Notes: generated from the letters alone by a model not told the origin. Positions 12,492-22,942 are shown, numbered from the stretch's first letter. The stretch: DNA of 64,000 nucleotides from Candidatus Bipolaricaulota bacterium (GCA_021735245.1 JAIPHJ010000006.1:2610-66609); one strand, 5' to 3'. Numbers and translations are program-made.

Positions 12492-12526
12492 GAAGATAAA
12501 ATGCCCCGCCGTCAGGACGGGGCATT
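12492..12526 (-). terminator. Rho-independent terminator after the MttB cluster
   Basis: Minus strand reads AATGCCCCG-tcctgacgg-CGGGGCATT followed by TTTATCTTC. The stem is 9 bp perfect (12500-12508 / 12518-12526), 31 nt downstream of the stop at 12557. Confidence 0.75.
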
Positions 12527-12556: not shown

Positions 12557-13987
12557 CTAAATCAGCGACTTTGCTTCTTCGATGATTTCTTTAAGCTGGT
12601 CGTCCTCTTCTTTCGGTAGTGGTTTTACATCAGATTCTTCTATCAGCTGGTTCGTTAATTCCCTGGCTTTCGTTACGGCAAAGTTCTCTTCCCACTTATC
12701 CTCGCCGATCCTCCGGATCAATTCGGGAGCCATTAATTCTTCCTTGAAGTGTTTGAAGGTGTGGTTTTCCCTCAGGTAATCCCCTCCGTGTTTTACCTGG
12801 TCGATAACCTCTAGTGCAATTGCTTCCTCGTTGGTTGAGAGGTCTTTTACGGTTCGTTTTGCCATACCGGCCAGTTCGTTCGTTAAGGTAAGCAGTTCGA
12901 GACTTCCCACATCTCCGGCTCCGGCAAAGGATAGGTCATGGATCAAATTCTGGCCGCCCAGAATAGCTCCGTAGAGTGAGAGGGCGGACTCGACACCGGC
13001 CTGGTAGTCGAGATCGTAGGAGTTCGTACAGCCTCCCGTGCCGTAGATCGGCATTTCTATCATGCTTCCCCATTGACCCGTCGCCGATTGAAGGATCAGC
13101 ATCTCCGGAGAAAAGTAAGTATTCAGGGCCGTGCGCATGTCCATTACGAGTGGTGAGGCTCCTAGAATAACCGGAGTCCCGGGGTTGTTTAACTGAGCGA
13201 TTACGTTTCCTCCCAGCGACTCAGCGAAGGCCTGGGCGAGAGACCCGGCCAGGGTCATCGGGGCCGTGGCACCTGCTTTTTGAGCCGGGTACCAGAGCAG
13301 AGGCAATCCAACGTCCGTCCACCTCAGGAGGACCTCCAGGTTCTCTTTCCTGAATGTCAACGGCGATACCGGCTCGGCGTACATGGTGACGAGCGGGTTT
13401 TGGGATAGTTTACCTCTGCCTCCCGCTACCACCGCAATCATATCAATTAGCTTGTCGGTTAGCTCTCCCCCGTACCAGTTTACGATAGCCCCGTGTTTAC
13501 TGCTATTGGCCAGTACAGAGTATAGCTGGTAAAAGCCAAGCATCGGGTCGTCGGTAAGGGTGAAGATGGACCAGACCACGTCAATATTCGAAAGCTGGTC
13601 CCCAAGTTTTACGGCATCGGATAAATCGTCCCTTGTGGCCTTTCTTCGCTCTTCCCGGTCGAGGTCGAGTACTGAAGTAGTACCCGTACCGGCAGTAAAG
13701 AACGATTTTTCGTAATCGAGTTCGAATTCGTTGTCACTGTTTCGGGCCCCCATCTTGAATGAAGATGGTGCTTTATCCAGCGAGTCGCTTACGATATCGG
13801 GTGGAATCTTGACAACGTGATTATCGGGGTCCACTCGACAGCCGTTCTCATCGAGAATTTGTCTTGATTTCGGGTCTTCTACCTTAATTCCTTTTTCTTC
13901 CAGGATTCTCATAGCAGCCCGATGGATAGTTTCTACCTGTTCGGGAGAAACTAAACTAAGTTGACCGCCCTTTGTCCCTTTTCGCAC
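12557..13987 (-). CDS. MttB-superfamily (trimethylamine methyltransferase-like) methyltransferase, non-pyrrolysine type
   Basis: 476 aa. The N-terminus LSLVSPEQVETIHRAAMRILEEKGIKVEDPKSRQILDENGCRVD..VKIPPDIVSDSLDKAP follows the conserved MttB/MtgB pattern. There is no internal TAG. Confidence 0.85.
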   Translation of the reverse strand: MRKGTKGGQLSLVSPEQVETIHRAAMRILEEKGIKVEDPKSRQILDENGCRVDPDNHVVKIPPDIVSDSLDKAPSSFKMGARNSDNEFELDYEKSFFTAGTGTTSVLDLDREERRKATRDDLSDAVKLGDQLSNIDVVWSIFTLTDDPMLGFYQLYSVLANSSKHGAIVNWYGGELTDKLIDMIAVVAGGRGKLSQNPLVTMYAEPVSPLTFRKENLEVLLRWTDVGLPLLWYPAQKAGATAPMTLAGSLAQAFAESLGGNVIAQLNNPGTPVILGASPLVMDMRTALNTYFSPEMLILQSATGQWGSMIEMPIYGTGGCTNSYDLDYQAGVESALSLYGAILGGQNLIHDLSFAGAGDVGSLELLTLTNELAGMAKRTVKDLSTNEEAIALEVIDQVKHGGDYLRENHTFKHFKEELMAPELIRRIGEDKWEENFAVTKARELTNQLIEESDVKPLPKEEDDQLKEIIEEAKSLI

Positions 13988-14031
13988 GATAAATCACCTC
14001 TATTGTCCATATTTGACAAAATTTCCAGTTG

Positions 14032-15483
14032 TTATTTGGGTAAGTGAATGTTAAATCGGTCTCTAATTTTTTCGTCGACTTCTTCCGATAGGAGGTTGTC
14101 CTTCGTACTGTCCAGTAGTTTCCTTGCTCGTTTCCTGGCTCGGGCGCGAGTGTCCATTGATCCGTTATTTTCCCAGGTGGTTCTGTCTTCACGATCGACT
14201 ACGCTCGGCTTGTAAAATTCCTCCGACCGGGAGTAATTTACGGTATGTTGCTGGGTAAGAAAGTTATTACCCGGTCCTACCTCTTCGATTACATCCAGGC
14301 CGATCCTATCCTCGTCCACCTCGATTCCCCGGAGAACTCTCAGAGCCATTCCAATAACGTCGTTGTCGATAACGAACTTTTCGTCGGCTACACAGAGCAT
14401 TGACTCCATCATTCCTGCTGCGTGGTGGATATAGTTACCACCTGCAAGTCCGACCTGAAGCATGTTGAGGGCGGCTTCGGCCCCCGCCTGTGTATCGGGC
14501 AATTTGGAGTCACTCTCTCCTGCGTCGGAATATATTGGGACGTCGATGTGGTCTGCCAGTTGAACTGTCGCGACGTTCATCATCCCCGTCTCAGGTGCCC
14601 CCGCCAGGTAGGCCATGTTCTTCATATTGGCCGCAGCCGGGACGGGTCCGTAGAGAACAGGAGCTCCTTCAGAAAACATCTGGGCTAGAGTAATCCCGAA
14701 CAGCACTTCTGCGTGGACCTGAGCAAGCAGGCCCGATAGAGTTGCGGGAGCTGTAGAGCCGGTGACCGGTGCCGTAGATAGGACAACGGGGAGTTCGTAA
14801 TCGGTTATTCTTCTGAGAACTTTTGTAGTTTCCGTATCCAATTTTAACGGGCTTACCATCCAGCTGGTTACGAATGAAATGAAGGGTCGGGCAAGAAATT
14901 CCTCCCTGGAGCCGGCTATTATCGCCCCCATATTTACTATTTCATCAACCTTTTCCGGTCTGGTCACCGATTCCTGAACGTTCTTGAAAGTTCCGGTAAG
15001 GCTTGCGTAGATACTGTTCAGACTCAGGTCCTCCTCGGGCACGTCGGTTGGCACCACGGGAGTTTGAAAGAAGTGAACGTTTTCCAGCTTCTCGACTAGT
15101 CGTGCCAGTCTTGCCTGATCCTCAAGAGTTGGGGGCCGGACCTCCTCGGAATTCAGGTCCAGTATTTTTACAGCCGCTCCCCCCGTCCCGTAGTGAACTT
15201 TTCTGTCCTCAAGGTTTAGGTCGTATTCTTCCTTTCTTCCGTGCAGGGTTACCTTAGACGGGGCAAGTTCGAGGTAATCTCTAACTACCTCCGGTGGCAG
15301 CTTTGCTCGTCCGTTCTTATGGTTGACCCGGGCACCGTTACTATCGAGAATTTCGAGAAATTCGTCCGAATCGACCTTTACACCTACTTTTTTTAACAGT
15401 TTTAAAGCGGATTCGTGGATTAAATCCACCTCGTCATCGCTCAATAATTTAAATTTATCGCCCACTAATCCTGCGTACTTCAT
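14032..15483 (-). CDS. MttB-superfamily methyltransferase, non-pyrrolysine type (second, divergent paralogue)
   Basis: 483 aa. LLSDDEVDLIHESALKLLKKVGVKVDSDEFLEILDSNGARVN..AKLPPEVVRDYLELAP. Full length with no internal TAG. Confidence 0.85.
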   Translation of the reverse strand: MKYAGLVGDKFKLLSDDEVDLIHESALKLLKKVGVKVDSDEFLEILDSNGARVNHKNGRAKLPPEVVRDYLELAPSKVTLHGRKEEYDLNLEDRKVHYGTGGAAVKILDLNSEEVRPPTLEDQARLARLVEKLENVHFFQTPVVPTDVPEEDLSLNSIYASLTGTFKNVQESVTRPEKVDEIVNMGAIIAGSREEFLARPFISFVTSWMVSPLKLDTETTKVLRRITDYELPVVLSTAPVTGSTAPATLSGLLAQVHAEVLFGITLAQMFSEGAPVLYGPVPAAANMKNMAYLAGAPETGMMNVATVQLADHIDVPIYSDAGESDSKLPDTQAGAEAALNMLQVGLAGGNYIHHAAGMMESMLCVADEKFVIDNDVIGMALRVLRGIEVDEDRIGLDVIEEVGPGNNFLTQQHTVNYSRSEEFYKPSVVDREDRTTWENNGSMDTRARARKRARKLLDSTKDNLLSEEVDEKIRDRFNIHLPK

Positions 15484-15509
15484 AATTCCCTCCAGTAATG
15501 TGTTTGGTG

Positions 15510-16955
15510 TTATAGATCGTAGTAAAGCATGAATTCAAACGGGTGAGGCTTGTCGTGGAACAAACTTTCCTCTTCCCGTTTGATCCTTAACCAGTTTTTT
15601 ATCTGAGATTCTTCAAATACATTCCCCCGGAGCAGGTACTCGTGATCGTTCTCCAGCGCGTTCAGAGACGCGCTTAACGACTCCGGAGCGTGTTTAATTC
15701 TTTTTTTCTCGGCTTCCGGTAAATCGTAAACATTTTTCTCTATTGGCCCGTAGCCCCCGTCTCGCGGATTCAGTTCCTTTTCTATTCCATCCAGACCGGC
15801 CATAAGGACTGCAGAGTAGGCTAGATAAGGGTTGCAGGTGGCGTCAATTGTTCTTAGTTCAACTCGCCTCCTGCTGTCGGATTGAACGTATCCCGGAATT
15901 CTTACTGCGGCACTTCTGTTTGACCTGGCGAAGACCAGATCCACCGGAGCCTCCTGTCCCGGAATTAACCTTTTGTAAGAGTTCGTGGTCGGATTGGTAA
16001 ATCCCATAAGACTCTTTCCGTGTTCGAGTAAACCGCCGATGAAATGTAGCGCCAGTTCGCTCAATCCTCCGTATTCTTCGCCCGAAAACAGGTTCTCTCC
16101 GTCCTTTACCATGTACTGGTGGAGATGCATTCCGTTGCCGGGGAAGTCGTTTACCGGTTTGGGCATGAAAGTGGCCGACATACCCGAGAGTTTGGCCATT
16201 ATCCGGGCTATATGTTTTACGTAAAGCGTATTATCGCCGGCGGTCAGAAGGTCGTCAAACCCCACTTCTATCTCCGATTCACCAGCTCCGCCGACCTCGT
16301 GATGGTGGTACTTTACGGGAATCCCCTCCCGTTCCAGAAAGGAAACTATCCTATTTCTCAATTCTATTCCGTCGTCGCCGGGACGAGGAGCGTGGTACCC
16401 ACCTGAGCTGGGCAGGGGGTGAGAAGACTCGTCGTCAGTCTCTGATTTGCTTCGATTGGTCAATTCGGTTGAATCTATCTCGAACCCACCACTGGTAGTT
16501 CCGTAGGAAAACCGGGCGTCGTTGAACAGGTAAAACTCGAATTCCGGGCTAACTAAAAATTCGTTGGCGACTCCGGTTTCTCTTAAATATCTTCTTGCTC
16601 GGGCTATCGTGCTCCGGGGATCGTCGTGAAATCTTCGTCTATTACCGTCTTCGTCGATTCGAAATATGTCACAGATTACACTTAGTACTTCCCCCTCCTC
16701 GGTGAGTTCAAATTTTGCGGTCTCCAGGTCGGGCACCAGGAGCAGGTCGCTATTCTCGACGGTACTGTAACCGTAAGACGAACCGTCAAATCCAATCCCC
16801 CTTGAGAGAAATTCCCTGGAAAAGTTGGATTCCGGAATGGTGATATGCCGCCACTTACCAATCGGGTCGACAACCTTGAAGTCTACGAATTCAGCTCCCG
16901 ATTCTTCGATTTTTCCGCTCAGTTCAACAAAAGAATCCTGGAAATCCTCATTCAT
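15510..16955 (-). CDS. glnA: Glutamine synthetase type I family ligase
   Basis: 481 aa. Motifs: FVDFKVVDPIGKWRHITIP, NPTTNSYKRLIPGQEAPV, SAAVRIPG and a KNVYDLP motif resembling the adenylylation-site region of GSI. Confidence 0.8.
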   Translation of the reverse strand: MNEDFQDSFVELSGKIEESGAEFVDFKVVDPIGKWRHITIPESNFSREFLSRGIGFDGSSYGYSTVENSDLLLVPDLETAKFELTEEGEVLSVICDIFRIDEDGNRRRFHDDPRSTIARARRYLRETGVANEFLVSPEFEFYLFNDARFSYGTTSGGFEIDSTELTNRSKSETDDESSHPLPSSGGYHAPRPGDDGIELRNRIVSFLEREGIPVKYHHHEVGGAGESEIEVGFDDLLTAGDNTLYVKHIARIMAKLSGMSATFMPKPVNDFPGNGMHLHQYMVKDGENLFSGEEYGGLSELALHFIGGLLEHGKSLMGFTNPTTNSYKRLIPGQEAPVDLVFARSNRSAAVRIPGYVQSDSRRRVELRTIDATCNPYLAYSAVLMAGLDGIEKELNPRDGGYGPIEKNVYDLPEAEKKRIKHAPESLSASLNALENDHEYLLRGNVFEESQIKNWLRIKREEESLFHDKPHPFEFMLYYDL

Positions 16956-17039
16956 TCTGCCCCTCCCTCGGCGAATTTTTTAATATTACTGCAGCAGGAC
17001 CGTACTTTCCATCCACTTTCTCCAGAGGTCGGCCCTATT

Positions 17040-18173
17040 TTACTCTATAGTAAAACTCTCTCTGTAGAGTTTTTTGACCTCACTCCGGTCTGGCTGGCGG
17101 GGGTTCGTCTCCGCATTTACGTTTTTGATGGCTCTGTCGACCATTTTGGGCAGGTCCTCTTCGTTTATCTCCACCCGGTATTTCGATAGATCGCGGATTT
17201 CGAACAAGCTTTCGACTTTATCCAGAAAATTCCCTTCCAATCTCCCCTCCAGTTTCTCCAGCCGTTCGGGGACCTCGACTTCGTTGTAATTCAACACGGG
17301 AAGGGTCAGTCTGGCATTGGCCAACCCGTGATTGGTATCGTAGAAGCCGCTTACCTGGTGTGACATTGCGTGGATTAACCCCAGGCCGACGTGTTGCATT
17401 GCAGCCCCTCCTAAAGCACTTGCCAGAGACAGGTCCCCTCTGGCGGTTATGCTGTCCCCGCTTTCCACTGCCTTTTCGAGCGACCTGAAGACAAGTTCCA
17501 TGGCTTTGATCGATAAAATGTCCGAGAGTTCGTTGTTTTTGGAAGAAAAGAAAGCCTCCAGAGCATGGGAAAAAGCGTCAATTCCCGTAAAAAACGTCAG
17601 ATCGGGGGGTAGAGTCAGAGTAAGCTCGGGGTCTATTACTGCGGTTAACGGAGCCATCTCCGGTGAACCTATCGATAACTTCCTGTTCGAGTTGGGATCG
17701 GATATTACCGCCCAGTAATCGACTTCGCTCCCGGTTCCGGACGTCGTTGGAACCGCAAAAAAAGGAACGCAGGGATTCGGTCTTTCCTCCCGTTCATCCA
17801 GCCGGACAATATTGGCTTCGTCATTTGCCAGACATAAACTAATCGTTTTGGTGGCGTCAATAGCACTGCCTCCGCCAAGTCCGATCAGGCAGTCGGGCTG
17901 GAACCCTCGTAAAGCTTCGAACCCTTCGGATATGGTTGATAGGTGAGGATTGCTGGTTACGTTAGAAAAGGACTCGATCTTCTTATCTTCCGATTTTAAT
18001 TGCTCGGTTATTCCTTCTACGAGTCCCAGCTCCAGGATGTCCTCCGTTGTCACTATACCTACGCGCTGGAAATCCCGACTCACGATCTCTTCTACGACCT
18101 GGCTTCTGAGTCCAGGGCCAAACTTTACTTTGGTGGGAAGTATGAAATCGAAGTAGTCTTCTTTCCGGTTCAT
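17040..18173 (-). CDS. Iron-containing (type III) alcohol dehydrogenase
   Basis: 377 aa. GLGGGSAIDATK nucleotide-binding motif and conserved His-rich metal region (HAMSHQVSGFYDTNHG). Confidence 0.85.
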   Translation of the reverse strand: MNRKEDYFDFILPTKVKFGPGLRSQVVEEIVSRDFQRVGIVTTEDILELGLVEGITEQLKSEDKKIESFSNVTSNPHLSTISEGFEALRGFQPDCLIGLGGGSAIDATKTISLCLANDEANIVRLDEREERPNPCVPFFAVPTTSGTGSEVDYWAVISDPNSNRKLSIGSPEMAPLTAVIDPELTLTLPPDLTFFTGIDAFSHALEAFFSSKNNELSDILSIKAMELVFRSLEKAVESGDSITARGDLSLASALGGAAMQHVGLGLIHAMSHQVSGFYDTNHGLANARLTLPVLNYNEVEVPERLEKLEGRLEGNFLDKVESLFEIRDLSKYRVEINEEDLPKMVDRAIKNVNAETNPRQPDRSEVKKLYRESFTIE

Positions 18174-18262
18174 ATCTCACCCCCCTCTGGCAATCCTGAT
18201 ACGATTAAAAAGGGGCCAGAAGTTACCCGGCCCCTTCCTTACGAGCTCTCGTCGGAACTTTT

Positions 18263-19213
18263 CTATCCTTCTATTAAGCCGTGTTCTACCAGGTACTCGT
18301 GGGCTGCTTCGTCGGCGTCCATCTTCTCTATATCAACCATACCGTTCAGAGCCGACCAGGCTTTCTGACTCTTCGACATCCGTTCGGCGGTCCAGTCTTC
18401 TCCTCCGCCCGGGAAGGTGGCGACGAGTTCGTTGAGTATCTCTTCGATCTCGGGGTATTGCTCGAGGACTTTGCTTCGGACGACCGGAGTTAGGTCGTAG
18501 GGCGGATAAAATCGCTTGTTGTCCTGGAGCACAACCCAATCGTGCTCGGCAATTGAGGAGTCCGTGGCAAAAACCATGCCCACGTCCGTTTGTTTGTTCT
18601 CGAGTGCGTTTACGGAAGCGCCGGGAGCACCCGTTTTCAAATGGCTGTTCGCTATCTCAAAGTTGTAATAATCTTCCAGGGCGGGCAGCCCGTCCGGTCG
18701 CTGGGAGTATTCGAAGTCTATAAACGTACTCACCTTGCCGTCGTTCTTCCGGTAAAGTTCCGCCAGGTCGGACATGGTTTTAAGGTCGTGTTCTTCGGCA
18801 AATTCCGGCCACACTGCAAGCGCGTAGGAATTATGGTTCCAGATCGGATCCAGCCAGTTCAAGTTGTTATCCGTCTTGTCAATTGCTTTTACGGCAGCGT
18901 AGAGTGCTTCATGTCCGATGGCTGGGTCGTAGGGATAACCCAGGTGGGTCATCCAGGCCGTACCGGTGTATTCGGCACAGACATCAATGCTGCCGTTTTC
19001 CAGCCCCTTTCTCATTGTCATCGAGGTTAGGTCCGCCTTCAATTGAACGTTGAAACCGTGCTTCTCCAGAACCTGTTTCATCAATTGCCCTATTATGTAT
19101 TGTTCCGTGAAGTTCTTGTTACCGACTACCACCTTTTTGTCCGCTGCGATTGCTCCGAGAAACGTACTCACCAGGAAAAGTGTTACCAGTACGAATACTG
19201 AAAGCTTCTTCAT
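18263..19213 (-). CDS. ABC transporter substrate-binding protein, glycine betaine/choline (OpuBC/OpuCC-like) family
   Basis: 316 aa. Signal peptide MKKLSVFVLVTLFLVSTFLGAIAA, then VVVGNKNFTEQYIIGQLMKQVLEKHGF, typical of OpuAC-fold binding proteins. Confidence 0.85.
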   Translation of the reverse strand: MKKLSVFVLVTLFLVSTFLGAIAADKKVVVGNKNFTEQYIIGQLMKQVLEKHGFNVQLKADLTSMTMRKGLENGSIDVCAEYTGTAWMTHLGYPYDPAIGHEALYAAVKAIDKTDNNLNWLDPIWNHNSYALAVWPEFAEEHDLKTMSDLAELYRKNDGKVSTFIDFEYSQRPDGLPALEDYYNFEIANSHLKTGAPGASVNALENKQTDVGMVFATDSSIAEHDWVVLQDNKRFYPPYDLTPVVRSKVLEQYPEIEEILNELVATFPGGGEDWTAERMSKSQKAWSALNGMVDIEKMDADEAAHEYLVEHGLIEG

Positions 19214-19305
19214 GTTAAAACCTCCTCTATTATTGGAAAGTTGAATTAACTTTGGTCAAAATTTTTCTTAACTAAACCAGTCACCTCCCGTTCTCGTAGT
19301 TTTGG

Positions 19306-20022
19306 TTAACCTTTCTTTAGTCCTCTGGGCGTCATTACCGCCTCGAATCCACCGAGTAGCGTGTCCAGTATTACCGCGAGTGCGGCAGTCGGAGCGGCAC
19401 CCTGGACTATCAGTAGAGGGATCTGAGTGTAAAGGCCAGTTAGGATTATCTTACCCAAGCCCTCTCCCCCGACGAGTACTGCAAGGGTGGCGGTCCCGAC
19501 ACATATCACGGTTGAAGTCCTTATACCGGCCATTATCACCGGTCGGGCGAGGGGCAATTCTATCCTCCAGGCAATTTGAGTGCGCGACATCCCCATGCCT
19601 TTGGCCGATTCGATTATTGCCGGATCGATGTCGCTTATCCCGGCGTAAGAATTTCTCAACACGGGGAGAAGGGAGTAAACAAATAAGGCGATTATCGCCG
19701 AGTTAAAACCGTAACCCAGGATCGGTGCCATTATGGCAATGACCGCCAGGCTTGGTATCGTTTGTCCCACGTTCGCGGCCCCGACTATTGGAGTGGCGAA
19801 TTTTTTCAACCCCGGTCTGGTAACGAATATTCCAAGTGGGACCCCGATACCGATGGCGAGTAACTCCGCTATTCCGACCATCTTAAGATGGTTCCACGTC
19901 TGTCTTCCTATGTCGGAGTAAGTTTTCGGTTGCATGTACTTCAGACTTCCCATCTCAGTAATCCATATCGTCACGCCTATGAAGATACTGAGGAGAATTA
20001 TTAGAACTATTCTTCGTCTCAT
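19306..20022 (-). CDS. ABC transporter permease (OpuBB/OpuCB-like)
   Basis: 238 aa, BPD-type permease with an EAA-like loop (IESAKGMGMSRTQIAWRIELPLA). 4-nt overlap with the ATPase gene. Confidence 0.85.
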   Translation of the reverse strand: MRRRIVLIILLSIFIGVTIWITEMGSLKYMQPKTYSDIGRQTWNHLKMVGIAELLAIGIGVPLGIFVTRPGLKKFATPIVGAANVGQTIPSLAVIAIMAPILGYGFNSAIIALFVYSLLPVLRNSYAGISDIDPAIIESAKGMGMSRTQIAWRIELPLARPVIMAGIRTSTVICVGTATLAVLVGGEGLGKIILTGLYTQIPLLIVQGAAPTAALAVILDTLLGGFEAVMTPRGLKKG

Positions 20023-21158
20023 CTTGGTACCTCAGGGTGTTTTCCACCGCTTTCGGTATAAGTTTCACCGATCAACCCCTGCAGGTCGTTGAAGGTCAAC
20101 AACCCCCTCAAACTGTTGTTCCCGTCGACCACCGGTATGTTCGCAACGTCGCGTTCGAGCATGACAGTCAGGGCGTCTGCGAGATTCGTTCCTATTTCCG
20201 CCGCACCCGTGTCAGTAACCATAGCGTCAGTTACCTTTCCCTGTCCTGTTTCCTCGACGTCTTCCCGATTGATCCAGCCCTTTAGCTTGTTTCCGTTCTC
20301 GACTACTATCAGGTAATTGACTCCTTCTTCCTCCATTATGCGGCCTACGGATTCGAGATCCTGGTCCTCTTTTACAACCCTTGGTGATTCTTTCATGGCT
20401 TCGTCGACCTTCATTAGCCGCAGGCTCTTCAGGGTCCTGTCGCTTCCCACGAAATCCCGGACAAACCTGTTCTTAGGGGCCGCGAGGAGTTCCGCCGGTT
20501 GAGAGTATTGAATTAACTTTCCCTCTTTAAGCAACGCCACTTTGTCCCCCATCTTTATTGCCTCGTTTATGTCGTGGGTGACGAAGACGATGGTTTTTTG
20601 TATCTCGTTTTGAATCTTTAAAAACTCGTCCTGAAGTCTGTCCCTGGTTATTGGATCAATTGCGCCGAACGGTTCGTCCATGAGCATAATCGGGGGATCC
20701 GCTCCGAGCGATCTGGCGACTCCAACTCGCTGTCTCTGCCCGCCGGAAAGCTCCGAGGGATACTTGTCAATAAATTCATCCGGATCCATTCCCATTAAGT
20801 TAAGGAGATTTCTTGCTCTCTCCTTTTTTTCCTCGTCCGACCATTTTTTCAGAGTTGGTACCGTGGCGATGTTTTCACCGACAGTCATGTGAGGGAAAAG
20901 GCCTATCTCCTGTATGGCGTAGCCCATTTCCCGCCTGAGCTCGTTCTCGTCCATTTCCCGGTTGTCGGTGCCGTCGATATAGATGTGGCCTTCGGTGATT
21001 GGAATAAGGCGATTGATCATTTTCATCGTCGTGGTTTTACCGCAGCCCGAAGGACCGAGCAAGACACACAGCTCCCCCTCTTTTATTTCGAAAGTAACGC
21101 CTTTCACCGCTTCCGTGCCGTCCTGATAGACTTTCTTTACGTTCTCTAGTTTTATCAT
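20019..21158 (-). CDS. ABC transporter ATP-binding protein with C-terminal tandem CBS domains (OpuCA/ProV-like)
   Basis: 379 aa. Walker A GPSGCGKTT, signature LSGGQRQRV, Walker B IMLMDEP, and a C-terminal CBS pair. Confidence 0.9.
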   Translation of the reverse strand: MIKLENVKKVYQDGTEAVKGVTFEIKEGELCVLLGPSGCGKTTTMKMINRLIPITEGHIYIDGTDNREMDENELRREMGYAIQEIGLFPHMTVGENIATVPTLKKWSDEEKKERARNLLNLMGMDPDEFIDKYPSELSGGQRQRVGVARSLGADPPIMLMDEPFGAIDPITRDRLQDEFLKIQNEIQKTIVFVTHDINEAIKMGDKVALLKEGKLIQYSQPAELLAAPKNRFVRDFVGSDRTLKSLRLMKVDEAMKESPRVVKEDQDLESVGRIMEEEGVNYLIVVENGNKLKGWINREDVEETGQGKVTDAMVTDTGAAEIGTNLADALTVMLERDVANIPVVDGNNSLRGLLTFNDLQGLIGETYTESGGKHPEVPR

Positions 21159-21820
21159 TTTTTCAACCCTTCCGGTGTAAATTTTTTCTCTGCCAGGGCC
21201 AACAAACCGTCAACCAACAAAGCCAGGACCGAAACGAAAACGGCCCCGGTTATGATCATGTCCGTTCTGGACGTTCTTAGGCCACGAAAAATTGGTACTC
21301 CTAATCCTCTCGCGCCAATAAAGACAGCGATGGTAGCAATACCGATGTTTATAACGACTGCGTTCCGGAGACCGGCCATGATCACCGGTACTGCCAGAGG
21401 AAGTTTGATTTTAAAAAGAATCTGTCTTGGAGTCATACCCATTCCCCTTCCAGCCTCAATCATAGCAGGATCCACTTCCCTGATTGCGGTGTAAGTATTC
21501 CTCAGAATAGGTAATTGTCCGTACAGGATTAAAGCTATGACAGCGGGTAGGAACCCGAGAGATGGTAGGTTTAGGGCTGAGAGCAAGGGCATAAGCAGGC
21601 CGAAGAGGGCCAGACTTGGGATCGTCATCATGATACCCGCCAGGTACAGAACCGTATCCGCGACTTCTTCCCTGCCTTTTCCGGCGATAAATATTCCGAG
21701 CGTTACACCGATGAAAACTGCGAAAGAGTTTGACACGAGGATGAGCCAGAGGTGATCCAGCGTCCAGCTTCCAATTGTGACCCAATGTCCATTAATATAG
21801 TTCCAGACTTCCATTTCCAC
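21155..21820 (-). CDS. ABC transporter permease (OpuBD/OpuCD-like)
   Basis: 221 aa, BPD permease with an EAA loop (IEAGRGMGMTPRQILFKIKLPLA). 4-nt overlap with the ATPase gene. Confidence 0.85.
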   Translation of the reverse strand: MEMEVWNYINGHWVTIGSWTLDHLWLILVSNSFAVFIGVTLGIFIAGKGREEVADTVLYLAGIMMTIPSLALFGLLMPLLSALNLPSLGFLPAVIALILYGQLPILRNTYTAIREVDPAMIEAGRGMGMTPRQILFKIKLPLAVPVIMAGLRNAVVINIGIATIAVFIGARGLGVPIFRGLRTSRTDMIITGAVFVSVLALLVDGLLALAEKKFTPEGLKK

Positions 21821-21870
21821 CCCCTACACACTTCTTTGAATAGTGATCTCTAGTTCAAAACTTAAGCACT

Positions 21871-22593
21871 CTATTCTGCTCCGTCGTAGTTCTTCAGAAA
21901 ATATTTTCTCGGTCCCTCGTAGTGCTCGCGAACTAACTCCTTGGAGGCCCTTACATCCTTTCTTTCCATAGCGTTCAGCAGTTGCCAGTGGAGTTCGTTT
22001 GCTTTTTCTTTATTAGCTTTCCAGTAATTAGCAACTGCCTCCCGTAAAAGTTCGTTGTGCGTTTGTTTCCAAAGACTGCTCATGCTGTTTTTTACAATAG
22101 GGTTTTCTACTGCGTTGGTGATATATAAGTGGAATCTCGCATTTACCTCGTAGGCCTCTTCGTATTTGCCCGAATCCAGGTAGTTCTCCATGTCGTCTAG
22201 AATTTGCCTCAATACACCAAAATCCCTATCTTCAAGGGAGGGTATTGCTTGTTCTATTACGCCCGGTTCGAAGACCTTTCTCGCTTCAAAAACCACCGAC
22301 GGATTTTCGCTTTCTTCTATAACGGGCAGGATTAAAGCTTCTAGTTCTTTGGAGTCCGGCAGATTCTCGATGTAAGTACCCGAACCAGCGTGAGAGCTAA
22401 CTATGTTTAACGCCTGTAACGTTCCGAGAGCCTCCCGGATGGAATTCCTACTGACGCCCATTTGCTCGGCAAGTTCTCGTTCCGGGGGTAGCCTATCTCC
22501 AACCTCGTAATTTCCCTCTATTATAGATCGGAGAATCTGCTCGGAGACTTTTATGAATACCTTTTTTTCTTCTTCTACCTTTTCAAACCCCAT
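21871..22593 (-). CDS. GntR-family transcriptional regulator, FadR/FCD subfamily
   Basis: 240 aa. N-terminal winged HTH (LPPERELAEQMGVSRNSIREALGTLQAL) and a C-terminal all-helical FCD-like domain. First gene of the co-directional cluster. Confidence 0.85.
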   Translation of the reverse strand: MGFEKVEEEKKVFIKVSEQILRSIIEGNYEVGDRLPPERELAEQMGVSRNSIREALGTLQALNIVSSHAGSGTYIENLPDSKELEALILPVIEESENPSVVFEARKVFEPGVIEQAIPSLEDRDFGVLRQILDDMENYLDSGKYEEAYEVNARFHLYITNAVENPIVKNSMSSLWKQTHNELLREAVANYWKANKEKANELHWQLLNAMERKDVRASKELVREHYEGPRKYFLKNYDGAE

Positions 22594-22614: not shown

Positions 22615-22628
22615 ATTGGTTAACCAAT
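22615..22628. promoter_or_regulatory. Perfect 14-bp palindrome ATTGGTTAACCAAT, candidate GntR/FadR-type operator
   Basis: The palindrome lies 22 nt upstream of the GntR start codon and immediately downstream of the predicted -10. It fits the t.GT...AC.a logic recalled for FadR-subfamily operators. Confidence 0.55.
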
Positions 22629-22631
22629 TTC

Positions 22632-22660
22632 ATAATATACCACTTTGGGGTGAGTGTCAA
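22632..22660 (-). promoter_or_regulatory. Sigma70-like promoter of the GntR-headed cluster
   Basis: Minus strand reads TTGACA (22660-22655), a 17-nt spacer, then TATTAT (22637-22632). Confidence 0.55.
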
Positions 22661-22673
22661 AGTCTTTGCGATA

Positions 22674-22942
22674 TCACCAAAACTTGCCGAGGAAGCCCCA
22701 CCGCTTGCTGTGGGGAGGAATCGGCTGTTTTTTGTCCTCCAGCACTCAAACGGGAACTGGTTTTCTTTGAGAGGTTCGATTGCTTGTTTTTAGTTAATCA
22801 TTACCTTTAGACTAATCAAGATACCCGGGTCCGTTTGAGTGCTGGAGGATTGACTGCTGGGTCTTCTTTTGTAAAAGAACAAAGTCCGTAGTTAAACCTG
22901 TTTTTCTACAAGCCCCGTCCCTTGGGGCGTGGTTCTTGACTT
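22674..22942. repeat. Family-A structured intergenic repeat, copy 1 (269 bp)
   Basis: Shares with 56057-56441 the left end TCACCAAAACTTGCCGAGgAAG-CCCC..GGGG-AgGAAT. It also shares a ~140-bp near-identical core with an 18-bp perfect inverted repeat (22736-22753 / 22831-22848, CCTCCAGCACTCAAACGG), and a right-end hairpin followed by TTGACT (22936-22941). Confidence 0.85.

What the first reader, a model, noticed from the sequence alone, without database searches (positions are those of the whole stretch)
12557..22593. GntR-headed 10-kb cluster linking an OpuB/C-type importer, a type III alcohol dehydrogenase, a GS-type ligase and two MttB-family methyltransferases
Nine co-directional genes are separated by gaps of 100 nt or less and bounded by a promoter/operator (22615-22660) and a terminator (12492-12526). 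They are a GntR regulator, permease, CBS-ATPase, permease, betaine/choline-binding protein, Fe-ADH, GlnA-like ligase, MttB-like and MttB-like.

Known:
- Non-Pyl MttB homologues demethylate quaternary amines (glycine betaine, proline betaine, carnitine, gamma-butyrobetaine) onto a corrinoid protein.
- Bacillus GbsB, a type III ADH, oxidises choline next to opuB/opuC.
- GS-like ligases gamma-glutamylate amines in methylamine, ethanolamine and polyamine catabolism.

Inference: this is an uptake-plus-catabolism route for choline or a related quaternary or N-methylated amino alcohol. The ligase would either assimilate released ammonia or activate a demethylated amine. This exact gene combination is not one I know as a described pathway.
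Basis: partly seen in the sequence, partly recalled or inferred. Interest (0 to 1): 0.62.

Follow-up and report, generated by a model that had tools for sequence, protein, structure and literature searches.

The report
Bipolaricaulota methylated-amine uptake and demethylation operon
A salt-lake Bipolaricaulota bacterium carries a conserved nine-gene operon with an osmolyte-type importer, an iron alcohol dehydrogenase, an ordinary-looking glutamine synthetase and two uncharacterised MttB-family methyltransferases, most likely for taking up and demethylating a choline-like amine; it is a new variant of a known kind of pathway, not a new kind.

Summary
Nine co-directional genes (12557-22593, minus strand) have gaps of 92 nt or less. 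They are bounded by a TTGACA-17-TATTAT promoter with a unique 14-bp palindrome and by a strong terminator.

The gene order is conserved across two genera, and in a variant form in a second family of Bipolaricaulota, at 55-96% protein identity. The linkage is therefore selected, not chance.

- **The ligase.** It is not a GmaS/GlnA4-type amine ligase. It keeps every catalytic and ammonium-site residue of glutamine synthetase. It is the orthologue of the only GS in complete genomes of other Bipolaricaulota families. Sister genomes carry a second, GSI-alpha-type GS, and the operon GS is present in only 8 of 15 genomes of the genus. In one relative the operon has eroded around an intact GS.
- **The two MttB proteins.** Both lack the Arg that binds the acid group in MtgB, a position reported conserved in MtcB, MtpB, MtyB and MthB. 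This points to a non-acidic substrate.
- **The Fe-ADH.** Its subfamily sits next to MttB1-type genes on many unrelated contigs.
- **Partner genes.** Corrinoid protein, methyl-THF transferase and RamA lie elsewhere in the genome. EutB and aldehyde dehydrogenases are absent.

Best reading: uptake and corrinoid-dependent demethylation of a choline-like amino alcohol, with GS capturing released nitrogen. The substrate and the role of GS are inferred, not shown.

The parts
22632..22660 (-). sigma-70-type promoter TTGACA-17-TATTAT of the operon
   Evidence: Scores 11 of 12 in the consensus scan. The hexamers are conserved in relatives L002, L083, L086 and L087.
22615..22628 (.). perfect 14-bp palindrome ATTGGTTAACCAAT, candidate GntR/FadR-type operator
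   Evidence: Read in the sequence. Single full copy in the genome. Kept as ATTGGTT(A/T)ACCAAT in five relatives of the genus. Absent in the g2 genomes, which lack the GntR gene. Binding is not tested.
21871..22593 (-). GntR-family regulator, FadR subfamily (GntR HTH + FCD domain)
   Evidence: Pfam PF00392 and PF07729. Present in the genus g1 operons, absent in g2.
21155..21820 (-). ABC permease 1 (OpuCB/OpuBB-like)
   Evidence: PF00528. 90-97% identical in relatives.
20019..21158 (-). ABC ATPase with C-terminal CBS pair (ProV/OpuCA type)
   Evidence: TIGR01186 scores 379 bits, above the cut-off of 326.6. Also PF00005 and PF00571.
19306..20022 (-). ABC permease 2 (OpuCD/OpuBD-like)
   Evidence: PF00528.
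18263..19213 (-). secreted substrate-binding protein of the OpuAC family (OpuBC/OpuCC/ProX type)
   Evidence: PF04069, 177 bits. The best solved relatives are sensor scaffolds whose PDB names give acetylcholine and nicotine as ligands, then ProX, OpuCC and OpuBC. Has an N-terminal signal peptide. Ligand not determined.
17040..18173 (-). iron-type (group III) alcohol dehydrogenase of a Bipolaricaulota-centred subfamily
   Evidence: PF00465 and PF25137. The GGGS motif and the Asp and His residues I expect from memory as the metal ligands of group III ADHs are visible. Below the cut-off of every NCBIfam equivalog, including GbsB (221 against 550). Its subfamily sits beside MttB1-type genes on many contigs.
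15510..16955 (-). glutamine synthetase, GSI with the beta-type insertion; operon-embedded copy
   Evidence: TIGR00653 scores 476 bits, above the cut-off of 429. All catalytic and ammonium-site residues are kept, with only N264P changed. Orthologous to the sole GS of other Bipolaricaulota families.
14032..15483 (-). MttB1: non-Pyl MttB-superfamily methyltransferase with Glu323 (GAG) at the pyrrolysine-equivalent codon
   Evidence: PF06253, 386 bits. At the four MtgB substrate positions it has G, Y, H and M in place of Y97, R312, H348 and F356. The Rfam PYLIS_3 hit 14418-14517 begins at that codon.
12557..13987 (-). MttB2: divergent non-Pyl MttB-superfamily methyltransferase, about 31% identical to MttB1 between the orthologues in L002
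   Evidence: PF06253, 282 bits. At the four MtgB substrate positions it has T, Y, H and G, and Cys at the Pyl-equivalent position. Relatives above 70% identity that carry a source name are all Bipolaricaulota. Named relatives at 45-46% are in Halodesulfurarchaeum, beside a corrinoid protein and RamA.
12500..12526 (-). intrinsic terminator closing the operon
   Evidence: Stem of 11 pairs, 7 of them G-C, followed by TTATCTT. Listed first among the terminator-like sites of the region.

Best explanation
This is a GntR-repressed operon of halophilic Bipolaricaulota for uptake and anaerobic, corrinoid-dependent demethylation of a methylated amine that has no acidic group. The substrate is most likely a choline-type amino alcohol.

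Proposed steps:
1. The OpuC-type ABC system imports the compound.
2. MttB1 and MttB2 each pass an N-methyl group to a corrinoid protein.
3. That corrinoid protein, its methylcorrinoid:THF methyltransferase and two RamA activases are encoded elsewhere. They feed the methyl groups into the folate and Wood-Ljungdahl genes.
4. The Fe-ADH is the conserved partner of the MttB1 subfamily. It interconverts the alcohol and aldehyde of the substrate or of its demethylated product.
5. The embedded ligase is a true glutamine synthetase. It captures ammonia released once the carbon skeleton is broken down, for example through glycine cleavage.

Shown here: gene identities, conserved order, the regulator site, GS orthology and intact GS residues, absence of the MtgB signature, and the location of the partner genes.

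Inferred: co-transcription, the substrate, the order of the ADH and MttB steps, and the reason GS is in the operon.
For: - **Families and spacing**; one strong promoter and one terminator.
- **Conserved operator** that is unique in the genome.
- **Conserved order** Opu-ADH-GS-MttB1-MttB2. Complete in four genus g1 genomes (G002, G003, G006, G010). Contig-truncated but consistent in G004 and G007. Kept in g2 (G015, G017), where the contigs end at MttB1 so MttB2 is unknown. G020 (family f3) has a variant order, MttB-Opu-SBP-SBP-ADH-GS.
- **ADH and MttB1 subfamilies are adjacent in other contexts.** L099 and L101 have Opu-ADH-MttB. L100 has MttB-ADH-MttB. L102 has ADH-MttB-MttB. L097 has Opu-ADH-ALDH-Amidohydro_2-MttB, with an MttB1-like gene and a corrinoid protein alongside. 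At least 14 contig lengths are shared between the two homologue lists.
- **GS recurs next to MttB genes.** L099 has GS-MttB-pterin methyltransferase in one direction.
- **GS residues.** D50, S53, E129, E131, Y179, E212, E220, H269, R321, E327, R339, E357 and R359 are all kept. Of these, D50, Y179 and E327 are reported as not conserved in GlnA4 and PauA7 (PMC6529630).
- **GS tree.** The operon GS clade is sister to the sole GS of G021, G023 and G026.
- **MttB1 and MttB2 have Tyr at MtgB R312.** That position is reported conserved in MtcB, MtpB, MthB and MtyB, where it contacts the acid group (PMC13080624).
- **Partner genes.** Corrinoid protein, GcvPA/PB, pterin methyltransferase, Fhs and FolD are together on C66. 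There are two RamA genes.
Against: - No transcript data.
- No enzyme that would release ammonia from an amino alcohol is evident. EutB is absent from all 21 genomes searched.
- The genome has no Aldedh-family enzyme to take an aldehyde onward, although it has four AOR genes.
- The Arg-absence argument for a non-acidic substrate rests on only a few characterised enzymes.
- FCD-type GntR regulators usually sense carboxylates (my own knowledge), which fits choline poorly.
- In L001 the GS survives after the rest of the operon eroded. Its value therefore does not depend on the pathway.
- The SBP ligand pocket was not analysed.
Confidence: 0.5

Rival explanations
1. The ligase is an amine ligase. 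It would gamma-glutamylate the demethylated product (ethanolamine, N-methylethanolamine or methylamine). The Fe-ADH would then oxidise the gamma-glutamyl amino alcohol, as proposed for the Streptomyces GlnA4 pathway. The pathway would end in glycine plus glutamate.
For: - GS and ADH are always adjacent in the operon.
- The predicted GlnA4 route uses a GS-like ligase, a dehydrogenase, an ALDH and an FGase-family hydrolase under a repressor (PMC6529630).
- L097 carries ADH-ALDH-amidohydrolase in the same slot, and has an FGase and a RimK-type ligase nearby.
- L095 has a Peptidase_C26/GATase gene directly upstream of an MttB1-type gene.
- N264P, and H or Q at position 326 next to the E327 flap, are specific to the operon clade.
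- The operon GS evolves faster than the GSI-alpha copy: 66-68% against 82% identity for the same genome pairs.
Against: - The ammonium pocket (D50, S53, Y179, E212) and the E327 flap are intact. D50, Y179 and E327 are reported as not conserved in GlnA4 and PauA7.
- The protein scores 375 bits to Salmonella GS but only 116-136 bits to solved GmaS-type enzymes.
- It is orthologous to the only GS of complete relatives.
- No gamma-glutamyl hydrolase or ALDH is in the operon, and no ALDH is in the genome.
Confidence: 0.18
2. There is no pathway link for the GS. It is an independent nitrogen-assimilation gene that became trapped between an Opu-ADH module and an MttB module by rearrangement of an ancestral neighbourhood. 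It stays there by inertia.
For: - Other Bipolaricaulota show the likely precursor layout: Opu-ADH-MttB, then a convergent GSalpha-RpiR, then GSbeta-MttB-MT2.
- L001 keeps an intact GS between an ADH 3' remnant and an MttB1 5' remnant.
- The GS is catalytically orthodox.
- It is the only GS found in G000.
Against: - The tight spacing (84 and 26 nt) and the order are kept while proteins diverge to 55-65% identity, in two families.
- Within the genus the GSbeta copy occurs only in genomes that carry the operon or its remnant (8 of 15). The GSI-alpha copy is in 12 of 15.
- GS-MttB adjacency recurs in several different arrangements.
Confidence: 0.15
3. This is an osmoadaptation operon. The importer accumulates compatible solutes. 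The GS makes glutamine and glutamate as osmolytes, as reported for the salt-induced second GS of Halobacillus halophilus (my own knowledge). The MttB proteins and the ADH adjust or recycle the solute pool.
For: - The ATPase has the CBS pair typical of osmoregulated OpuA/OpuC-type systems.
- The closest named relatives are MAGs whose isolate names begin 'GSL'; that these are from the Great Salt Lake, and so hypersaline, is my reading of the names.
- A second GS exists in the genus.
Against: - A GntR/FCD repressor and two demethylases point to catabolism.
- Relatives place the same module beside FolD/FTCD and methyl-THF transferase genes.
- The genome holds 11 MttB paralogues plus a C1 island, typical of methylotrophic acetogenic use of such solutes.
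Confidence: 0.12

Closest known systems
MtgB/MtgC/MtgA glycine betaine:THF methyltransferase system (Desulfitobacterium hafniense; PDB 2QNE, 9YCE)
   Same: A non-Pyl MttB-superfamily enzyme methylates a corrinoid protein, and a pterin-binding enzyme passes the methyl group to THF. MtgB is the best solved match to both proteins: 264 bits for MttB1 and 186 bits for MttB2. The genome has the corrinoid protein, MT2 and RamA.
   Different: The substrate signature Y97/R312/H348/F356 is not met. MttB1 has G/Y/H/M and MttB2 has T/Y/H/G. Another paralogue, C28:21368-22786, does meet it. The corrinoid and MT2 genes are not in the operon. An ADH and a GS are present.
MthK/MthB/MthC/MthA choline pathway of Eubacterium limosum (PMC12155760)
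   Same: Anaerobic, TMA-free demethylation of a choline-type compound by an MttB-family enzyme, with an accessory enzyme that handles the hydroxyl end of the molecule.
   Different: MthB uses phosphocholine made by the kinase MthK, and MthB is reported to keep the Arg equivalent to R312. This operon has no kinase and no such Arg. It has an Fe-ADH, a GS, an ABC importer and two MttB paralogues instead.
Bacillus subtilis OpuB/OpuC importers with GbsB/GbsA choline oxidation (my own knowledge plus NCBIfam NF053866)
   Same: A four-component OpuC-type importer (two permeases, a CBS-ATPase and an OpuAC-family binding protein) next to a type III alcohol dehydrogenase.
   Different: The ADH scores 221 bits against the GbsB cut-off of 550. 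There is no GbsA, and no Aldedh-family gene in the genome. The purpose here is catabolic demethylation, not betaine synthesis.
GlnA4 gamma-glutamylethanolamide synthetase pathway of Streptomyces coelicolor (PMC6529630); GmaS; PuuA
   Same: A GS-family ligase encoded with a dehydrogenase and a repressor in an amine-utilisation cluster.
   Different: D50, Y179 and E327 are reported as not conserved in GlnA4 and PauA7. Here these residues, S53 and E212 are all conserved, and the protein passes the GlnA equivalog threshold.
Pyl-containing TMA methyltransferase MttB (Methanosarcina barkeri; PDB 7XCL, 7XCM)
   Same: MttB1 shares the local active-site strand: PIYSDAGESDSKLPDTQAG against PSYVAGS(Pyl)SDAKVPDDQAG. 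Tyr replaces the MtgB Arg in both. Rfam PYLIS_3 matches from the equivalent codon.
   Different: There is no UAG. The codon is GAG (Glu). Overall similarity is lower than to MtgB (208 against 264 bits). The RNA match follows coding homology and is not evidence of recoding.

Membership tests
MttB superfamily (PF06253), non-pyrrolysine branch | Full-length match to the MTTB profile | tested here: met
   MttB1 scores 386 bits and MttB2 282 bits, against a cut-off of 25.
MttB superfamily (PF06253), non-pyrrolysine branch | No in-frame UAG | tested here: met
   Open frames of 483 and 476 aa without stops. The Pyl-equivalent codons encode Glu and Cys.
MtgB glycine betaine methyltransferase | Substrate-binding residues Y97, R312, H348, F356 (PMC13080624) | tested here: not met
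   MttB1 has G, Y, H, M. MttB2 has T, Y, H, G. Only H348 is kept.
Characterised quaternary-amine MttB members (MtcB, MtpB, MtyB, MthB) | Placement in a clade with a characterised member; Arg at the R312 position | tested here: inconclusive
   The Arg is absent. No phylogeny was possible, because these sequences could not be fetched with the tools and NCBIfam has no model for them.
Glutamine synthetase type I (GlnA, TIGR00653) | Score above the equivalog cut-off | tested here: met
   476 bits against a cut-off of 429.
Glutamine synthetase type I (GlnA, TIGR00653) | Metal, glutamate, ATP and ammonium residues intact | tested here: met
   All 19 other checked positions are kept; only N264P is changed. 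Activity not measured.
Gamma-glutamyl-amine synthetases (GmaS, GlnA4, PauA, PuuA) | Loss or replacement of the ammonium-site residues D50, Y179 and the E327 flap | tested here: not met
   All three are conserved across the operon clade, except E327D in G020. The match to solved GmaS-type enzymes is weak, 116-136 bits.
GbsB choline dehydrogenase (NF053866) | Equivalog score, and a partner betaine-aldehyde dehydrogenase | tested here: not met
   221 bits against a cut-off of 550. No PF00171 match in the genome.
OpuB/OpuC-type ABC importer | Two permeases, a CBS-domain ATPase and an OpuAC-family binding protein | tested here: met
   (TIGR01186 is above its cut-off). Solved relatives are OpuBC, OpuCC and ProX.
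OpuB/OpuC-type ABC importer | Aromatic-cage and ligand-selectivity residues | not tested
   The EYTG, NSYA and PPY motifs are visible in the sequence. No residue-level alignment to OpuBC, OpuCC or ProX could be obtained.
GntR family, FadR subfamily repressor with palindromic operator | GntR HTH plus FCD domain | tested here: met
   PF00392 and PF07729.
GntR family, FadR subfamily repressor with palindromic operator | Cognate operator overlapping the promoter | tested here: inconclusive
   The palindrome is conserved, is unique in the genome, and is absent where the GntR gene is absent. Binding is not testable here.

The most novel reading that the evidence does not exclude
The operon encodes an undescribed anaerobic route that demethylates free choline or N-methylated ethanolamines stepwise. 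It would use two new MttB subfamilies that need no phosphate or carboxylate handle. MttB1 would use a Glu at the former pyrrolysine position to hold the amine. The route would be coupled through a dedicated Fe-ADH and AOR to glycine and C1 metabolism. A dedicated glutamine synthetase would capture the nitrogen. The result would be complete, TMA-free mineralisation of choline nitrogen in hypersaline sediments.
Probability: 0.22. Interest if true: 0.7.

Novelty: new variant of a known kind. Interest (0 to 1): 0.48.

Why it matters
Only a handful of MttB-superfamily enzymes have known substrates. The known ones mostly remove a single methyl group from an acidic betaine or from phosphocholine.

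This operon marks out two uncharacterised subfamilies that lack the acid-binding Arg. It also shows a conserved partnership between one of them and an iron alcohol dehydrogenase across Bipolaricaulota. That gives concrete candidates for direct demethylation of neutral amino alcohols. Such a reaction bears on TMA-free choline turnover and on methane-precursor budgets in saline sediments.

The analysis also settles that the 'GS-like ligase' is an orthodox glutamine synthetase. The repeated GS-MttB neighbourhood in this phylum remains an open, testable question about how nitrogen capture is tied to methylamine catabolism.

Tried and rejected
- **Housekeeping GlnA as sole copy.** It is the only GS in G000. 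I rejected this as a full explanation. Sister genomes carry a GSI-alpha-type GS flanked by interspersed repeats, often on short contigs, so it was probably lost from this MAG. The operon GS is accessory in the genus.
- **Foreign or neofunctionalised GS on a long branch.** Rejected. The tree places it as the vertical Bipolaricaulota orthologue with an ordinary stem length.
- **Choline to ethanolamine, then EutBC, with the ADH as a EutG analogue.** EutB is absent from all 21 genomes searched.
- **GbsB/GbsA-type oxidation to glycine betaine.** There is no Aldedh family member in the genome. Four AOR genes could substitute, but this is untested.
- **Pyrrolysine recoding.** The PYLIS_3 hit begins at a GAG codon in an open frame and follows coding homology. 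Rejected as a recoding signal.
- **Riboswitch or leader in the intergenic gaps.** Rfam found none.
- **Phylogeny against MtcB, MtpB, MtyB and MthB.** Their sequences were not obtainable with the tools. I used the residue signature from PMC13080624 instead.
- **Aromatic-cage analysis of the binding protein.** Only engineered sensor scaffolds were shown as alignments, so this was not pursued.
- **Transcript evidence.** The look-up of sequencing runs first rejected the query as too long. It was then closed.
- **Contexts of distant MttB2 relatives.** Halodesulfurarchaeum has corrinoid protein-MttB-RamA. Another contig has proline-racemase and DAO neighbours. Neither gave a substrate clue that transfers at 44-46% identity.

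Full report
**1. The observation**

The nine ORFs lie at the stated coordinates on the minus strand.
- GntR+FCD regulator
- permease
- ABC ATPase with a CBS pair (TIGR01186, 379 bits, above its cut-off)
- permease
- OpuAC-family binding protein
- Fe-ADH
- Gln-synt_N plus Gln-synt_C
- two MTTB proteins, about 31% identical between the L002 orthologues

Gaps are 50, -4, -4, 92, 89, 84, 26 and 44 nt.

The best promoter-like site of the region is TTGACA-17-TATTAT at 22660-22632. The terminator-like site listed first is the hairpin at 12526-12500. Nothing comparable lies inside the cluster on that strand. The 14-bp palindrome ATTGGTTAACCAAT sits at 22615-22628.

**2. Origin and conservation**

The window is contig C31 of a 1.95-Mb MAG of 83 contigs, 85% complete. 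The closest named relatives are Candidatus Bipolaricaulota MAGs whose isolate names begin 'GSL'.

The order Crp | GntR-perm-ATPase-perm-SBP-ADH-GS-MttB1-MttB2 | coiled-coil protein is complete in L002 and in G003, G006 and G010. It is contig-truncated but consistent in G004 and G007. All six belong to the same genus. Two genomes of a sister genus (G015, G017) have it without the GntR gene, and their contigs end at MttB1. G020, of another family, has a variant: MttB-perm-ATPase-perm-SBP-SBP-ADH-GS. Protein identities range from 55% to 97%.

The promoter hexamers and the palindrome survive in the genus while the flanking sequence differs. The palindrome is unique in the genome. It is missing where the GntR gene is missing.

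The cluster is therefore a selected unit, and the operator assignment is reasonable.

**3. The ligase**

It passes the GlnA equivalog threshold, 476 against 429 bits. It aligns end to end with Salmonella GS at 375 bits, including the beta-type insertion and the Tyr397 motif.

In an alignment numbered on Salmonella GS, these residues are all kept throughout the operon clade: D50, S53, E129, E131, Y179, E212, E220, G265, H269, H271, R321, E327, R339, R344, E357 and R359. The exceptions are N264P in every member, and S53T and E327D in G020. The nearest outgroups have Ala or Asn at position 264.

D50, Y179 and E327 are the residues reported as not conserved in GlnA4 and PauA7 (PMC6529630).

A maximum-likelihood tree puts the operon GS clade (12 rows) as sister to a clade that holds the only GS of G021 and of the closed genomes G023 and G026. 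Together they form one well-supported Bipolaricaulota clade with ordinary branch lengths. By sequence and descent the ligase is an orthodox glutamine synthetase.

**4. Is it the housekeeping copy?**

G000 has no other GS. In the genus, however, 12 of 15 genomes carry a GSI-alpha-type GS that is 34-36% identical to the operon GS. Only 8 of 15 carry the operon type.

In sister genomes the alpha-type gene is flanked by the interspersed repeat family and often sits on short contigs. This makes its absence from G000 a likely assembly loss.

The alpha type is more conserved than the operon type between the same genome pairs: 82% against 66-68%.

In L001 (G009:C172) the GS stands alone between Crp and the coiled-coil gene. 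About 90 codons of the ADH 3' end, frame-broken, lie upstream of it. The first 55 nt of MttB1 lie downstream. The operon eroded there while the GS stayed intact, so the GS has value of its own.

**5. The MttB proteins**

The genome has 11 MttB homologues, none with internal stops.

MtgB binds glycine betaine through Y97, F356, R312 and H348. R312 is reported as conserved in MtcB, MtpB, MthB and MtyB, where it meets the acidic group (PMC13080624).

MttB1 has G, Y, H, M at these positions. MttB2 has T, Y, H, G. Only the paralogue at C28:21368-22786 and a fragment on C4 carry the R312 and H348 residues (R, H, Y), and only the full-length C28 copy also shows Y97.

MttB1 orthologues in GS-containing operons all have Glu at the pyrrolysine-equivalent position. 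More distant relatives have Q, L or M there. The local strand resembles true MttB. The Rfam PYLIS_3 model matches 14418-14517 starting at that GAG codon, which I read as coding homology.

The two proteins are therefore new subfamilies with unknown, probably non-acidic, substrates.

**6. The ADH**

The GGGS motif and the Asp and His residues I expect from memory as the metal ligands of group III ADHs are visible in the sequence. It is below the cut-off of every named equivalog, including GbsB at 221 against 550 bits.

Its homologues fall off from 42-50% identity (those with a source name are mostly Bipolaricaulota) to 36%. Members of that subfamily lie next to MttB1-type genes in several different arrangements. 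At least 14 contig lengths are shared between the ADH and MttB1 homologue lists.

This ADH-MttB1 pairing is the most conserved core of the cluster. It is the best clue that the substrate or product carries a hydroxyl or aldehyde group.

**7. Wider neighbourhood**

In L099, L100 and L101 the ADH-MttB unit faces a convergent GSalpha-RpiR pair. In L099 a GSbeta-MttB-pterin methyltransferase unit follows. The present operon could have arisen from such a layout by loss of the middle genes.

GS-MttB proximity thus recurs across the phylum. This argues for a link between nitrogen capture and methylamine catabolism, but shared ancestry of gene order cannot be excluded.

**8. Partner and missing functions**

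Present elsewhere in the genome:
- One 211-aa corrinoid protein and one pterin-binding methyltransferase lie on C66 with an OpuAC protein, GcvPA/PB, Fhs, FolE and FolD.
- Two RamA-type activases.
- Four AOR genes.

Absent:
- EutB, from 21 genomes.
- The Aldedh family, from G000.

This rules against an ethanolamine ammonia-lyase step and against a GbsA step. Glycine cleavage remains a plausible ammonia source.

**9. Verdict**

The cluster is real and conserved. It is best read as an uptake-plus-demethylation operon for a choline-like, non-acidic methylated amine, with an orthodox GS attached.

It is a new variant of a known kind. The MttB subfamilies and their ADH partner are the interesting part. 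The ligase is not exotic. The substrate, the order of steps and the role of GS remain inferences.

Noticed in passing
window 14418-14517 (minus strand), inside MttB1: Rfam PYLIS_3 (pyrrolysine insertion sequence of mttB) matches at 39.4 bits, just above its gathering score of 38. The match starts exactly at the Pyl-equivalent codon, which here is GAG (Glu323), one base from UAG. Relatives have Q, L or M at this position; whether their codons are also one base from UAG was not checked. It looks like coding homology, but it hints that this subfamily descends from Pyl-containing MttB.
   Followed up: partly
L001 1996-2269 and 3859-3939 (G009:C172): An eroded copy of the operon. Frame-broken remnants of the ADH 3' end and the first 55 nt of MttB1 flank an intact GS. 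The same MAG also has an ADH-GS fragment on another contig (L090).
   Followed up: yes
L081 (G002:C96:117000-120500), L091: The second, GSI-alpha-type glutamine synthetase of the genus is flanked on both sides by the interspersed hairpin repeat family. In several MAGs it sits on contigs whose GS coordinates start within about 1.5 kb of the contig end. It is missing from the window's genome, probably for that reason.
   Followed up: partly
G000 C66:23674-34595 (L108): A C1 island: OpuAC binding protein, corrinoid protein, glycine-cleavage P subunits A and B, pterin-binding methyltransferase, formate-THF ligase, GTP cyclohydrolase I and FolD. It holds the only small MtgC-sized corrinoid protein found for 11 MttB paralogues; the two other B12-binding hits lie in ORFs of about 600 aa.
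   Followed up: partly
G000 C28:21368-22786: The only full-length MttB paralogue with the complete MtgB glycine-betaine signature (Y, R, H, aromatic). It is probably the genuine glycine betaine methyltransferase of this organism.
   Followed up: no
whole genome G000: No aldehyde dehydrogenase (PF00171) match at all, but four tungsten-type aldehyde:ferredoxin oxidoreductase genes. No EutB in any of 21 related genomes.
   Followed up: partly
L095 11467-12823 and L096 5890-7246: A GSI-alpha-type GS next to an MttB1-type gene is split into three ORFs in two independent assemblies. It is a pseudogene or a recoding event. A Peptidase_C26/GATase gene lies directly upstream of that MttB.
   Followed up: no
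L097 463-20244: A 491-kb contig of an unidentified organism carries Opu-ADH-ALDH-Amidohydro_2-MttB, a divergent MttB with a corrinoid protein, RpiR and a third MttB. These are followed by hydantoinase A, CN hydrolase, FGase and a RimK-type ligase. This may be a fuller version of the pathway.
   Followed up: partly
window 22674-22942: A copy of the mosaic hairpin repeat lies between Crp and the operon promoter. A 62-nt piece of it also matches L001:300-361 in the opposite orientation.
   Followed up: no
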